DNA of 64,000 nucleotides from Octopus sinensis (GCF_006345805.1 NC_043002.1:43648001-43712000); one strand, 5' to 3'. Shown: positions 57-47,880, numbered from the stretch's first letter. The notes: a model not told the origin generated them from the letters alone. A program made the numbers and translations.

Positions 57-179
57 GGATGGATTCAATCGGCTGTCGCCTCCCGCTTAAATTTCTGCGT
101 TTTTTTTTGTTGCTTAATTTATAAGCAATTGTTCCTCTGAGAAAACTATTGAACTCCAATTGGTGTCATCTTTGTGTTG

Positions 180-250
180 CATCTAGATGATAATGTCACT
201 ACGTCTTCTGATATGTAGCGTAAATATGACGTCACAAATGTTTATTATTG
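180..250 (-). promoter_or_regulatory. Promoter-like module 0 (twin CRE-like sites, Inr-like motif)
   Basis: Perfect TGACGTCA at 227-234 and a degenerate site starting 18 bp away (209); context gatgataatg...tatgacgtcacaaatgtttatt aligns with 3731-3793. Confidence 0.5.
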
Positions 251-599
251 TTGTTGTTATTTACTCACAGGTCACTTATGATGAAGGTGACCTACGAGGA
301 AAAACATTTCAACTGTAACCATCTCTTTTATTTTACCTACGTGAGACGGGACCCCAGATCTGCATTTGCAATTTATCTTTTTCTAAGACAGTGGAGTGCG
401 ATATAAGAGAGAAATTTGACAGTTATTTCCAGCAGGTTGAACAACCACAAAGAATCGCCCTCGTAGATCTGGTTTCTTAATTGTTACCCTCTAATCTCTT
501 AGAAGACAATGTTACGCAATTAGAAACTAGAATAAATAAATAAATACTGCAAAACACTGAGAATATATCAGAATTACATATATTCATGCATACATACAT

Positions 600-1030
600 G
601 CATTCTTTTATTCATTTAATTGGCCACAAGGGCCTTACAAAGAAAGGAAGCTGCGGGCTGGACACGGACATAATGAGATGGAATGATTAACGATATGATA
701 ACAATGAGGGCAACAGCAACACCCGCCGATTGCTTTATACCTGAGCACATTATTCTTTTATAAAACATTTTGAGGCAACAAACCTTTTAATGATAACGCG
801 TTAAGGAGGCAATAGATCTCTTACATTAACGACATACAAAGCCATTTTGAGGCAATAAACCTCTTACTCAAGTCCTTTTAGGAATCAAAAATACAATTTT
901 CTTGCCCGACCAGACTTCTCGCCTCAGCAAAACACCTGGACGGCTCCAAGTCGGACCTATTTAACATAAATTTGTAGGTATCCTTAGAGAAGGAGTCCAT
1001 TATCCTGAACAGGTCGTTCTCCCTCATGAC
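600..1030 (-). mobile_element. Decayed 3' end of a non-LTR retrotransposon (L1/Tx1-like)
   Basis: Non-repetitive coding-like remnant (VMRENDLFRIMDSF...) with duplicated ttttgaggcaa.aaacct motif, flanked by (CATA)n; family assignment tentative. Confidence 0.3.
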
Positions 1031-1034
1031 CTTG

Positions 1035-1180
1035 CATGCATACATACACGCATACATACATACACATACATGCATACATACATACACGCATACATACATA
1101 CATACATACATACATACATACATACATACATACATACATACATACATACATAGGTACGTACATACATACATGCATGCATG
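1035..1180. repeat. (CATA)n microsatellite
   Basis: Direct reading of the sequence. Confidence 0.95.
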
Positions 1181-1201
1181 CACCCATATGTAAGTGTATA
1201 T

Positions 1202-1359
1202 ACAGAGGCGAACCCAAGGGTGGGGGACTGAGGGACACGTGCCCACTCCCTCAAGAAAAGAAGTGCGCCCTTCTAAATAATGTTATAGTAATTTGTTTTA
1301 ATAGCTGCGCCCTTCTGACTTTGTGCCCTCCCTTCGAAAATTTCCTATGACCGCGCCTG
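1202..1359. mobile_element. hAT-like MITE
   Basis: GC-rich island with imperfect termini cagaggcg...cgcgcctg and internal gtgccc motifs. Confidence 0.45.
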
Positions 1360-1769
1360 TTGTATGGCATGTGGGCTAGTGGTTAGGGTATGACACTCAC
1401 GATGGCAAGATCGTGGTTAAAAAGGCAAAAAAAAAAAATAATGATTCAATAAAGTAAGGAAAATATGGTCATCAGAGCACTTTCAACCTCCAATAAATAG
1501 CTCGACCCTAAAACCTTTGCAGTGTCAGCTTGAGACCTATGATTGGCCTTAACAATTGGTCATCAAAAGAACTTACAGACATGGATGTAAGAATCTAGAA
1601 ACTGTTTCAGTATTAATGGAGCTGGAGACAAATTATATTTAACATGTTGAGTAAAGTTAGAGTGGCCTGAAGCCTGTACCATAACAATGAGTAAATATCT
1701 CCAACAGTGACAAACTCGAATCGTAGCTTATGCCTGATCAGCCTCGCTTCCCTTTAATAATTGTTTCTA

Positions 1770-1980
1770 TTATAGGCACAAAGCCAACTATTTAGGGAGG
1801 AGGAGGCTAATTGATTGCATCGATCCCCAATGTTCAACTGGTACTTATTCTATTGATTCTGAAAGGATGGAGGACAATGATGTCTTTAACCGAATTTGAA
1901 CTCAGAACGTAAAGAACCAGAAGAAATGTCGCTCAGAATTTCACCCGAGGTATAAACAATTCTGCCAGCTCGCAGCCTTA
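1770..1980 (-). mobile_element. tRNA-derived SINE family B, decayed
   Basis: Reverse complement matches gcgagctggcagaat...ttctgagttcaaatt of the better copies at 19302 and 60861. Confidence 0.8.
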
Positions 1981-2139
1981 AATAACACTGTAACAATTTT
2001 CTTTCTGATCCCGGAACCATGTGGTTCGTAAGCGAGCTACTTACTACAGAGCCACTCTTACACCTATTTGGACTCAGAACGTAAAGAGCCGCTAAGCATT
2101 TTAACCGGCGTGCTAACGATTAGGACAGCTTCAACCACA

Positions 2140-44814: not shown

Positions 44815-44819
44815 CGAGC

Positions 44820-45440
44820 AGGCATAGCAGCGTTGTTAAGAAACTAACTTTGCAGCTACGTAGTTTCGGGTTACGTCTCACTGCATGACACTTTGGTTAA
44901 GTGTTTTCTGTTATATCTCCGGGCCGACCAATGCCTTTAAGTGAAGTTAGTAGACGGAAACTGTGTACAAGCTGCCATATATGTGTGTGTGTGTGTGTGG
45001 TGTGTGTGTGTGTGTGTGTGTGTGTGTGTGTGTGCGTGCGTGTGCGTATGTATGTGTGTGTGTGTATGTGTGCGTATGTGTGTGTGTGTGTGCGTGTGTA
45101 TGTGTATGTCTGTGTGTGTATGTGTGTATGTGCGCGCGTGTGTATGTGCATGTGTGTGTGTATGTGTGTGTGTATGTGTGTGTGTGCGTGCGTGTGTATG
45201 TGTGTGCGCGTGTGCATGTGTGCGTGTGTATGTGTGTGTGTGCATGTGCGTGATTTCTACTTCCTCCAGCGTTTGACCACCGATGTAGGCTTGTTTATAT
45301 CTCCATAAATTAGCGGTTCGGCAAATATTCCGATAAAATAAGTATCAGACAAATAAGTACTGCTATCGATTTCTTCGACTACACCATTCAAGGTATAGCC
45401 CTAGCATGACCACAGTTCAATGGCTGAAACAAGTAAAGGA
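44820..45440 (+). mobile_element. SINE family A with expanded internal (TG)n, head-to-head with the previous copy
   Basis: Decayed head, ~270-bp TG tract, ctgaaacaagtaaa tail. Confidence 0.8.
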
Positions 45441-45483
45441 TAAAAATATACCATGAATTAATGTGGAATATCAATCAAAGATT

Positions 45484-46077
45484 GCGAGCTGGTAGAATCT
45501 TTAGCACGCTAGGCGAAATGCTTAGCGGTATTTCGTCTGCCGTTACATTCTGAGTTCAAATTCCATCGAGGTCGACTTTGCCTTTCGTCCTTTCGGGGTC
45601 GATAAATTAAGTACCAGTTACGCACTGGGGTCGATGTAGTCGACTTAATCTGTTTGTCTGTCCTTGTTTGTCTTCTCTGTGTTTAGCCCCTTGTGGGTAG
45701 TAAAGAAATAGGTATTTCGTCTGCCGCTATGTTCTGAGTTCAAATTCTGCCGAGGTCGACTTTGCATTTCATCCTTTCGGGGTCGATTAAATAAGTATCA
45801 GTTACGCGTGGGGTCAATATAATCGACTTAATCCGTTTGTCTATCCTTGTTTGTCCCCTCTATGTTCAGCCCCTTGTGGGTAGTAAGGAAATTAGAATAT
45901 TTAGCACGCTGGGCAAAATAGTTAGAGACATTTCGTACGTCTTCACCGTTTGATTTTAAATTCTGCTGAGGTGGTCTTTGCCTTTCATCCATCCGGGTCG
46001 ATACAGTAACTACCAGTCGGACACTGGGGTCGATCCAATCTACCGAGCTTCTTGGCCTTGTGCTAAAATTTGAAAGC
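45484..46077 (+). mobile_element. SINE family B trimer
   Basis: Three tandem bodies. Confidence 0.88.
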
Positions 46078-46081
46078 AATA

Positions 46082-46308
46082 TATTGGGTTGTCCGGAAAG
46101 TTAGTGCCGATTTATAGTAGCTTACCTTCGACTTACCCTCCCAGGCACCTCAATTCTGGGAAGAGGGTATTTTCAAGTTAAAGGAAAGATGGAGACGCAT
46201 TGTGCAACAAAATGGTTCATATTTGGTTGATTAAAAATGTAATGGCAAGTATTTATTGACCATTTTCTTTCCTTTAAAAATCGGCACGAACTTTCCGGAC
46301 AACCCAAT
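46082..46308. mobile_element. mariner-derived MITE
   Basis: ~30-bp TIRs ttgggttgtccggaaagtt.gtgccgattt and aaatcggcacgaactttccggacaacccaa; internal FWEEGIFKLKERWRRIVQQNGSYLVD. Confidence 0.9.
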
Positions 46309-46635
46309 CTCTATATATATAAAGCTGAAGTTGTCTGTGTATGGCAAGTTTGGTAACCTTCAACTAATACTATCTCCTCCGAGACCCTGCGGCGCAAGTT
46401 GACCAAAATTGAGAGTATGATAGAAGAAGGCTTGCTCTTTATTCCGTAGACGATAAAATTCAAATTGGACCATGTTAACAACAAAAATTATTTACATAAA
46501 AAATGGTGCTTTTTTTCTATGAAAATCCCTAGTTTCTACGATTTTTTTACTGCTGTGTCGCCATTTTTCGGTGTATTTCAACCAGAAAAATGTTGACTTA
46601 AAGCGAATAAGCTACATAATGCAAAATTCCAATAC
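46308..46635 (+). mobile_element. Non-autonomous Helitron 5' part, inserted at the mariner terminus
   Basis: Near-identical to 11763-12100. Confidence 0.75.
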
Positions 46636-46679
46636 TGCTATTAGTATGTTAATCAACACGTGCTCTACTTGTTGAAACT

Positions 46680-47249
46680 TTGAAACTTCATTTAATTGAA
46701 AAACAAAATTAAATATTTTTTCCTGACGTTGTTTCATAAATTAGGTCTCTGCACTAAAACGAAGGCGCAGTTTCAAATAAAAGGAAAGGCCACACCAATA
46801 TTTAAGCAAAAACGAAAAACTGTTGGTTTTGCTGTTGTTGCTGTTGTAGTTGCTGCTGTTGCAATTATTGCTGTAACTGCTGTAGTTGATGTTGTTGTTG
46901 CTGCTGTTGCTATTGCTGCTGTTGCAACTGCACCACGGAGACCAATAAGTTCTCAATGTTAACCGAGTTTTCTTTGGTTTCGCACCAAAGAAAAAGATAA
47001 AGTTAAAACAACAAACACAAGCTTCGAACAACTCGTCGCTACTTTTATATCCTTGTATGTTGGACATGTAATTTAACGAAACAGGGGGGAAATAAAATAA
47101 TTACACAACGCACTGCTATTACTATTACACGAGACTCAACACTCTGTATTAACGGCTCACAATGAACTGCTTACCAATCCAAACTGCCAATCGCTCACAG
47201 TCAGGCAACATTTAGTCACTTTGTGGATGGTCGAAATCCTTCCACAACA
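46680..47249 (-). mobile_element. Gypsy-like remnant: LTR, PBS-like site and Gln-rich gag start (-), plus an inverted pol-like piece (+)
   Basis: (-) tgttgtggaagg start, ggatataaaag, tggtgcgaaacc, (CAR)n; (+) LGLCTKTKAQFQIKGKATPIFKQKR. Confidence 0.55.
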
Positions 47250-47569
47250 GCTAAGTGACCGTAATAGCCAAGTGTGTTAACAGAAGGTGATGTTTAGGAA
47301 TAATAGTTGGACTGGTGGTTATGGCGATTTCAAGCAGACGGCTTCATTTCAGATTCACCGTTAACCACTCAGAAATTTTAGGCTAGTTTAACAATTTTTG
47401 GTTAGTATAACAAAAACACTTAAACATCTCTATTACGTGTGTTAATTTATATAATCACGAATTTTCATCGATCAGAAACTTTAGCCAATCAAAACCTAGT
47501 AGATATGTTAGTTTTCTTTCTGTTAGCTGTAACAAACGAGAAGATACATTGGTTTTCTTTCTCTTAGCT

Positions 47570-47880
47570 GTAAATAACATCTTTGCACCTACAGTTATCC
47601 TGCTCTCTATTTCCTTTCCCTCTTACTATCAGGAAGCTTCTATCTTGCCCTCGACTCGATAGAATAATTTAAACAATTTAAATGCACGAACAATTAACTA
47701 CTTGTTCTCCTTATTGATGGTCTATTATCTTATCACATACAATTGACTCTAAAGCACTAATCATTTCACTGACACATAAACATGAGAATATGCAATTTTC
47801 CATAGCGCATTTCTACAGCAGTAAATTATCAAAATGACGTCGATGTAACATCTTCACAATCTCATTTATTTAAACGATGC
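47570..47880 (-). other. Tentative paralogous module I
   Basis: tgacgtcg 47835-47842 followed by tcacaa..catttatt; donor-like ATA|GTAAGA ~47625; aataacat block. Confidence 0.25.

What the first reader, a model, noticed from the sequence alone, without database searches (positions are those of the whole stretch)
137..47880. Hidden minus-strand tandem array of paralogous promoter plus non-coding first-exon cassettes
Seen: after removing TEs and microsatellites, the same co-oriented module recurs with promoter cores at ~227 (0), 3771 (A), 11572 (B), 18948 (C), 24363 (G), 27517 (E) and 30266 (J), tentatively at 35030 (H) and 47835 (I), and as partial bodies at 20100-20240 (D) and 40150-40695 (F). 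On the minus strand it reads: old repeat relic, twin CRE-like sites, TCATTT-like motif, a short segment (170-200 nt in A-C), a GT donor (GTAAAA 3560, GTAAGT 11336, GTAAAT 18715, GTAAGT 20186, GTGAGT 23196, GTATGT 29976), then an old SINE-relic intron. Copies are strongly diverged yet donor-like sites persist, and no shared ORF is kept. Known analogy: vertebrate clustered protocadherin and UGT1A variable first exons, and multi-promoter genes such as BDNF. Inference: about 10 duplicated alternative promoters/5'-UTR exons splice to one constant coding exon at the left edge, giving a promoter-choice system.
Basis: partly seen in the sequence, partly recalled or inferred. Interest (0 to 1): 0.85.

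Follow-up and report, generated by a model that had tools for sequence, protein, structure and literature searches.

The report
Octopus array of duplicated promoter cassettes
An octopus chromosome carries eight old, side-by-side copies of one promoter-like DNA cassette; one copy is transcribed and spliced in the direction opposite to the one first proposed, likely into a non-coding RNA, while the other copies look mostly decayed and no shared protein-coding exon was found.

Summary
The array is real. Eight co-oriented paralogous cores (0, A, B, C, a newly found K, G, E, J; 41-63% identical) lie in window 141-31164. None was found elsewhere in 563 kb. H and I are unsupported.

A contig covers cassette A at 3818-4058 and continues exactly at 22750: a plus-strand GT-AG splice over 18.7 kb, skipping B, C, D and K. 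A second, 93%-identical run stops exactly at that donor. Contigs run unspliced across A's proposed minus donor (3560).

The contig's length fits a two-exon RNA of about 0.9 kb ending in a young transposon, with a longest ORF of 46 aa. No coding exon was found at 136 or leftwards up to an SLC7A9-like gene 47 kb away. The right neighbour, TRAF3IP1, has its own X-box-like promoter motif.

The other copies have weak plus donors or inserted elements and were not tested with RNA. Minus donors at homologous places in B, C, D and J2 remain an open lead.

Best reading: a birth-and-death promoter array with one live, probably two-way promoter. The scan noted an analogous coding case elsewhere (e1-7832080).

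The parts
141..464 (+). Cassette 0: core with TGACGTCA at 227 and short plus-side exon homologue; weak donor GTGAGA at 341
   Evidence: E 2.5e-5 for 255-464; donor score 0.9
3111..4384 (+). Cassette A, whole duplicated unit (left flank with old SINE relic, twin CRE-like sites at 3753 and 3771, exon, donor)
3818..4058 (+). Transcribed first exon of A, donor CAG|GTAAGT at 4059
   Evidence: run X7 contig 3818-4058 with loose end; run X2 contig 3840-4058; donor score 8.9, top 0.1%
3350..3723 (.). Lower-depth RNA-type contigs left of A's CRE, unspliced across 3560; strand unknown, likely a divergent transcript
   Evidence: X1 3357-3584, X2 3350-3723, X7 3476-3715
10849..12448 (+). Cassette B; TGATGTCA at 11572; repeat inserted at 11763-12080; plus donor position reads GC (12259); minus GTAAGT at 11336
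18307..19300 (+). Cassette C; degenerate CRE at 18948; weak plus donor GTTAAT (19273) followed by a SINE; minus GTAAAT at 18715
19887..20034 (+). Recent 99.3% copy of B 11381-11528
20039..20265 (+). D: flank-only copy with minus GTAAGT at 20186; possibly the displaced flank of K
   Evidence: (E 0.015)
21489..21699 (+). Cassette K (new): degenerate core
   Evidence: E 5e-4; z 4.8-7.4 against A
22750..23401 (+).
   Evidence: acceptor score 6.6; 22690-22940 single copy
24312..24505 (+). Cassette G core with TGACGTCA (24363) and TGATGTCA (24381); high-copy repeat begins at 24543
25187..25576 (+). Flank-only copy, possibly the displaced flank of E
   Evidence: E 0.004
27466..28021 (+). Cassette E, core split by an inserted element at about 27554-27786
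29889..31164 (+). Cassette J, core split by a repeat inserted at about 30291-30665; minus GTATGT at 29976; plus GTACGT at 31236
31935..32172 (+). J2: flank-only copy, 65% identical to D

Best explanation
The region is an old tandem array of eight copies of one CRE-containing cassette, of which copy A is transcribed and spliced on the plus strand to an acceptor 18.7 kb away, likely giving a two-exon non-coding RNA from a probably two-way promoter, while most other copies are likely decayed relics. Shown: the paralogy and confinement of the array; A's exon (3818-4058) and its join to 22750; read-through of the proposed minus donor at 3560. Inferred: (1) local duplication of a unit of about 1.3 kb made the array, and insertions and point decay then broke most copies (birth and death); (2) bZIP factors of the CREB/ATF type bind the palindromic TGACGTCA sites and start transcription both ways, about 35-45 bp to either side; (3) A keeps the only strong plus donor, which lies in an old repeat relic, so splicing skips the weak donors of B and C and takes the first strong acceptor; (4) the second exon runs on to a young transposon at about 23370 that supplies a poly(A) signal.
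For: Splice: the X7 contig (893 nt, depth 18.5, no differences) lies on 3818-4058 and its loose end matches 22750-22779 exactly and uniquely in the window. The skipped part begins GT and ends AG on the plus strand. The X2 contig (93% identical, depth 51.6) ends exactly at 4058.
Two-exon shape: 652 letters remain, which read colinearly end at 23401. A 95-99%-identical high-copy element starts at 23368-23378, where a 31-mer assembly would break at about 23397-23408.
Non-coding: the longest ATG ORF in 22750-23460 is 46 aa with no Pfam hit. A's in-frame ATG (4015) reads ATA in X2 and the 39-aa upstream ORF is frameshifted there. 0 of 9 candidate ORFs are in the protein collection.
Decay: plus donors at the homologous place score 0.9 in cassette 0, read GC in B and GTTAAT in C. 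Repeats sit 25-190 bp after the CRE in B, G, E and J. The core is no better conserved than the left flank among A/B/C (0.50-0.54 against 0.50-0.70 three-way identity).
Two-way promoter (weak hint): contigs of two runs stop at 3715 and 3723 on one side and begin at 3818 and 3840 on the other, around the twin CREs.
Against: The junction rests on one contig in one run whose kind is not on record. No DNA run was laid as a control, and contigs carry no strand, start site or level. Only A was laid, so the silence of the other seven copies is inferred from sequence alone. GC donors and 5' UTR insertions can still work. The contig's last 652 letters were not seen and could be further spliced exons; donor-like sites exist at 22831 and 22837 (score 2.6). 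X2 stopping exactly at the donor implies at least two continuations. Six of eight cores keep a 7/8 or better CRE, and minus donors persist in homologous columns in B, C, D and J2 (chance about 0.02-0.13 under neutral decay when J is counted too), which fits more lasting function than a relic array.
Confidence: 0.55

Rival explanations
1. A plus-strand promoter-choice system: 0, A, B, C and K are alternative first exons spliced to the common exon at 22750 (and G, E, J to later exons), each used in different tissues.
For: A skips B, C, D and K to reach 22750, as a variable first exon would. Donor-like sites lie at the homologous place in 0, A, B and C. The exon at 22750 is single-copy with a strong acceptor.
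Against: Only A has a strong donor. The X7 contig crosses the junction unbroken, so no second first exon entered there at similar depth in that run. Cores B, G, E and J are interrupted by repeats. No coding product was found.
Confidence: 0.2
2. The cassettes are distal promoters or clustered enhancers of the next plus-strand gene, TRAF3IP1/IFT54 (ATG about 30 kb right of the window), for example a CRE-driven programme in sperm-forming or ciliated cells.
For: TRAF3IP1 is the next recognisable intact gene in the transcribed direction (MIP-T3 E 1.8e-13). No other intact coding exon was seen in 149 of 256 plus-strand ORFs scanned. CRE-driven spermatid promoters are recalled from vertebrates, not from any call.
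Against: TRAF3IP1 has an X-box-like CCATAGCAAC about 300 bp before its ATG (motif identity recalled). The AG before its ATG scores poorly as an acceptor (-6.7). The X7 contig length fits an end at 23401. No paper held TRAF3IP1, alternative promoter and testis together.
Confidence: 0.12
3. One reading: minus-strand first exons splice to a constant coding exon at 136.
For: Minus GT sites occupy homologous columns in B, C, D and J2 and score 1.7-5.1 in B, C, D and J. RNA-type contigs begin just left of A's CRE, near the predicted start. One frame after 136 is open for 30 aa, followed by AATAAA (sequence).
Against: Contigs of two runs cross 3560 unspliced with more than 31 letters on each side. 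The acceptor at 136 is weak and lies inside module 0's own homologous exon. No common frame arises across the joins. No non-transposon Pfam hit was found in 106 minus ORFs between 136 and the SLC7A9-like gene, which ends 47 kb to the left on the plus strand.
Confidence: 0.08
4. The cassettes are the 5' ends of a former tandem gene cluster, for example C2H2 zinc-finger genes, whose coding exons were lost.
For: A broken C2H2 fragment lies on the plus strand at 41072-41292, downstream of the array (zf-C2H2 E 9e-8).
Against: There is only one fragment. It is 84% identical to an intact zinc-finger frame on another chromosome, much younger than the 41-63% between cores, so it is probably an unrelated insertion. 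No paralogue of the 22750 exon was found.
Confidence: 0.05

Closest known systems
Vertebrate variable-first-exon clusters (Pcdh alpha/gamma, UGT1, GCNT2, UGT2A; PMC1885805, 12 passages read)
   Same: Tandem paralogous promoter plus first-exon units, a motif at the same place in each unit, pseudogene or relic units, birth-and-death turnover with signs of recent copying, and one unit shown splicing over its neighbours to a single-copy downstream exon.
   Different: There the variable exons are large and coding, each is spliced to conserved constant coding exons, and many are active. Here the exons are short and non-coding, only one is shown spliced, and no constant coding exon was found.
Multi-promoter genes with non-coding first exons (glucocorticoid receptor and NOS1 are named in PMC1885805; BDNF is recalled)
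   Same: Short untranslated first exons, CRE-like sites, long first intron.
   Different: Those feed a protein-coding exon, and their first exons are, from recall, mostly not recognisable paralogues. Here the units are sequence paralogues and the product looks non-coding.
Octopus lncRNAs with embedded repeats (PMC9115989, 12 passages read)
   Same: Short ORFs, SINE and transposon fragments in the transcript, and cross-species identity (92.7% in run X2) close to that paper's 92.1% mean for lncRNA orthologues between two Octopus species.
   Different: The passages seen describe no tandem array of paralogous promoters.

Membership tests
Variable-first-exon cluster (Pcdh/UGT1 type) | Tandem, co-oriented paralogous first-exon units | tested here: met
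   eight cores in 141-31164
Variable-first-exon cluster (Pcdh/UGT1 type) | Shared motif at the same position in each unit | tested here: met
   twin CRE-like sites align; 6 of 8 keep a 7/8 or better match; selection on the motif not shown
Variable-first-exon cluster (Pcdh/UGT1 type) | Two or more first exons spliced to the same downstream exon | not tested
   the single read-laying run covered cassette A only
Variable-first-exon cluster (Pcdh/UGT1 type) | Variable exons encode homologous protein parts | tested here: not met
   only short, unshared ORFs
Variable-first-exon cluster (Pcdh/UGT1 type) | Conserved constant coding exons downstream | tested here: inconclusive
   none found to the left or right; exons under about 35 codons or without a Pfam family would be missed
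Variable-first-exon cluster (Pcdh/UGT1 type) | Cell- or tissue-specific promoter choice | not testable with these tools
   contigs give no level, strand or tissue
Long intergenic non-coding RNA | Spliced transcript over 200 nt between coding genes | tested here: met
   893-nt contig with a GT-AG join between the SLC7A9-like gene and TRAF3IP1
Long intergenic non-coding RNA | No long or conserved ORF | tested here: inconclusive
   met if exon 2 is colinear (46 aa at most); its last 622 letters were not displayed
Dispersed transposable element | Many copies across the genome | tested here: not met
   searches found only array copies; the G core was single-copy while the repeat beside it was not; no profile hit at E<1 outside the array in 563.5 kb; old dispersed copies below about 75% identity not excluded
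Structured non-coding RNA family (Rfam) | Match at gathering score | tested here: not met
   0 matches in the window

The most novel reading that the evidence does not exclude
A two-way promoter bank: several of the eight duplicated CRE cores are live, each with a first exon and donor on both sides (plus donors in 0/A/B/C, minus donors in B/C/D/J/J2). Choosing a cassette would set both a rightward RNA, possibly reaching the cilia gene TRAF3IP1, and a leftward RNA. This would be a purely non-coding, bidirectional version of a protocadherin-like variable region in a cephalopod.
Probability: 0.15. Interest if true: 0.72.

Novelty: new variant of a known kind. Interest (0 to 1): 0.4.

Why it matters
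Arrays of sequence-paralogous promoters are best known from vertebrate coding clusters. An octopus array of eight, about 50-60% identical, with no coding exon attached, shows the regulatory unit alone being duplicated and lost, and gives a natural series for asking which changes keep a promoter alive. If several copies prove active, or feed TRAF3IP1, it becomes an invertebrate promoter-choice system. On present evidence it is one lncRNA-like transcript amid relics, which is of moderate interest.

Tried and rejected
- Rfam: 0 matches.
- Long non-transposon ORFs within 50 kb of the window: none recognised by eye.
- Protein search with the 41-aa frame over the 22750 exon: 1 candidate, none at E<=10.
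- Pfam on 149 of 256 plus-strand ORFs between 22700 and 94300: only the zinc-finger fragment passed a curated cut-off; the other hits (E 0.0016-0.049) were below cut-off and taken as chance. The 107 left out were mostly in transposon-like stretches or beyond the window.
- Pfam on 106 of 131 minus ORFs left of 200 (23 inside one LINE and 2 across locus borders left out): 3 transposon hits.
- Splice-site and codon-based exon prediction gave no candidate between 22840 and 94000 other than 2 in repeat-like sequence. The weight matrices were my own approximations from general knowledge.
- H and I rejected.
- A codon-like pattern on the minus strand of the conserved 3400-3470 block was seen and dropped: it is open for only about 26 codons in A, with no conserved start or acceptor.
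- Run search: no RNA holder on record was listed.
- The gap in cover over the CRE and the lack of cover beyond 4058 are not evidence by themselves, and no DNA run was laid.
- A sequence-only model of the core could not be run on the whole genome, so old dispersed copies remain unexcluded.
- The sigma-70 scan is irrelevant to an animal and found nothing.
- Literature: octopus + alternative first exons + promoter gave 1 unrelated paper (listing only); duplicated promoters / noncoding first exons / tandem duplication gave 1 rice paper (listing only); cephalopod + bidirectional promoter + lncRNA gave 0; TRAF3IP1 + alternative promoter + testis gave 0. No supplements were read, and transcript tables in them could hold this locus.
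Full report
Setting. The window is G000:C6:43648001-43712000 in a 2.72-Gb genome. A protein 100% identical to the nearest left-hand gene is named by its source as a b(0,+)-type amino acid transporter of Octopus sinensis. 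Its exons lie on the plus strand from 235.7 kb to 47.3 kb left of the window. The nearest intact right-hand gene that I recognised is TRAF3IP1/IFT54, also on the plus strand, with its ATG at window-relative 94368 (Pfam MIP-T3 E 1.8e-13). The array thus lies in an interval of about 141 kb in which I found no intact coding gene.

The observation. After masking simple repeats, A (3111-3955), B (10849-11711) and C (18307-19140) align at 62-66% with E 1e-53 or better. A profile from A/B/C alone gave 11 hits at E<10 in 163.5 kb, 10 of them co-oriented and within 141-31029; the best hit on reversed sequence was E 0.33. A core profile trained on A, B, C, K and G then found three copies outside its training set in 563.5 kb: E in two colinear halves around an inserted element, J in two parts, and 0. 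Nothing outside the array reached E<7, and the reversed control reached E 0.2. Shuffle z-scores support 0, A, B, C, K, E and J well and G moderately (4.5-4.9 against a highest control of 3.3), but not H or I. Core identities are 41-63%. D, J2 and 25187-25576 are flank-only copies; F is mostly old-SINE similarity. Genome searches with A (twice), C and J returned only array copies, and the G core was single-copy. These searches missed even C when A was the query, so they exclude only young dispersed copies.

RNA. Three guessed-RNA runs held 5-7% of the words of 3100-4300, and two runs of unrecorded kind held about 35%. I laid four of them (X1, X3, X2, X7) on 3070-4540 only. An 893-nt contig of X7 lies without differences on 3818-4058 and then leaves the stretch. 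Its loose end matches 22750-22779 exactly, the only match in the window with up to 3 mismatches. The skipped 18.7 kb starts GTAAGT (donor score 8.9, top 0.1% of GT sites) and ends tttcttcAG (6.6), so the RNA is read on the plus strand. A 93%-identical contig of X2, depth 51.6, covers 3840-4058 and stops exactly at the donor. Left of the CRE, lower-depth contigs cover 3357-3584 (X1), 3350-3723 (X2) and 3476-3715 (X7). X3 covered only 3070-3246. That last point is a weak hint, since contigs have no strand and no DNA run was laid.

The product. The X7 contig has 652 letters after the join, of which only 30 were shown. Read colinearly they end at 23401. A high-copy element with 95-99% identical copies begins at 23368-23378, and an assembly on 31-letter words would break at about 23397-23408. 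The fit favours a two-exon RNA of about 0.9 kb, with AATAAA at 23324 and 23416. This is inference. Its longest ATG ORF is 46 aa, without Pfam hit. A's in-frame ATG is ATA in X2, and a 39-aa upstream ORF is frameshifted there. None of 9 candidate ORFs is in the protein collection. The exon's 92.7% identity in X2 is close to the 92.1% mean reported for lncRNA orthologues between two Octopus species (PMC9115989, passages read), so it shows no special constraint.

The other copies. At the position homologous to A's plus donor, 0 has GTGAGA (score 0.9), B has GC and C has GTTAAT followed by a SINE. All of these lie in an old repeat relic found elsewhere in the region. Repeats are inserted 25-190 bp after the CRE in B, G, E and J. 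Among A/B/C the core is not better conserved than the left flank. This reads as decay. Against that, 6 of 8 cores keep a 7/8 or better CRE. The minus-strand GT sites of B, C, D and J2 also fall in the same columns, which A has deleted. Counting J's site as well, a rough neutral model gives a chance of 0.02-0.13. My RNA test fell on the one copy that has lost this site, so minus-strand splicing from B, C, D or J is untested.

Position 136 lies inside the part of module 0 homologous to A's proposed minus exon, and scores 1.8 as an acceptor. One frame after it is open for 30 aa, but only G's non-homologous donor brings an ATG into that frame; C and J2 give 11-27 aa in other frames, and A, B, D and J none. 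Of 106 minus ORFs scanned between there and the transporter gene, 3 hit Pfam, all transposon families.

Comparison. The layout resembles vertebrate variable-first-exon clusters as described in PMC1885805 (12 passages read): tandem units with a shared motif, relics, birth and death. Membership is not established: the first exons are non-coding, only one is shown spliced, and no constant coding exon was found. Four searches found no description of such an array in a cephalopod (one search listed general papers). Subscription journals and supplements were not seen. The scan has no notes on this genome and no look-alike sequence. One analogous coding case in an arthropod (e1-7832080) was not checked here.

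Verdict. A real and unusual array, wrong direction for the one demonstrated splice, and no evidence yet for promoter choice. Best explanation 0.55; interest 0.4.

Noticed in passing
window 41072-41292 (+): Broken C2H2 zinc-finger fragment, 84% identical to an intact 345-codon zinc-finger frame at G000:C14:66.57 Mb; probably an inserted piece.
   Followed up: partly
window 19887-20034: 148-bp copy 99.3% identical to B 11381-11528, showing recent copying or conversion inside an otherwise old array.
   Followed up: partly
window 28190-28279 and 28409-28498, with 28105-28137 and 28551-28583: Near-perfect long inverted repeat (97-100%) around a SINE head, a fold-back duplication. A similar inverted duplication lies at 57919-58096 / 58435-58691.
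   Followed up: no
L011:61-72 (window-relative 94061): X-box-like CCATAGCAAC about 300 bp upstream of the TRAF3IP1 ATG; motif identity recalled.
   Followed up: no
L007 and L013-L031: SLC7A9-like gene of 12 coding exons spread over 188 kb on the plus strand.
   Followed up: partly
window 11763, 24543, 27554, 30291: Four of eight cores have a repeat inserted within about 200 bp right of the CRE, possibly reflecting open chromatin in the germ line; no background rate was computed.
   Followed up: no
window 3517, 11277, 18658, 20113: A plus-strand TTCAATAAAAT block is kept in the left flank of B, C and D (AATAAC in A); it could be a relic poly(A) signal, but contigs in A read through it.
   Followed up: partly
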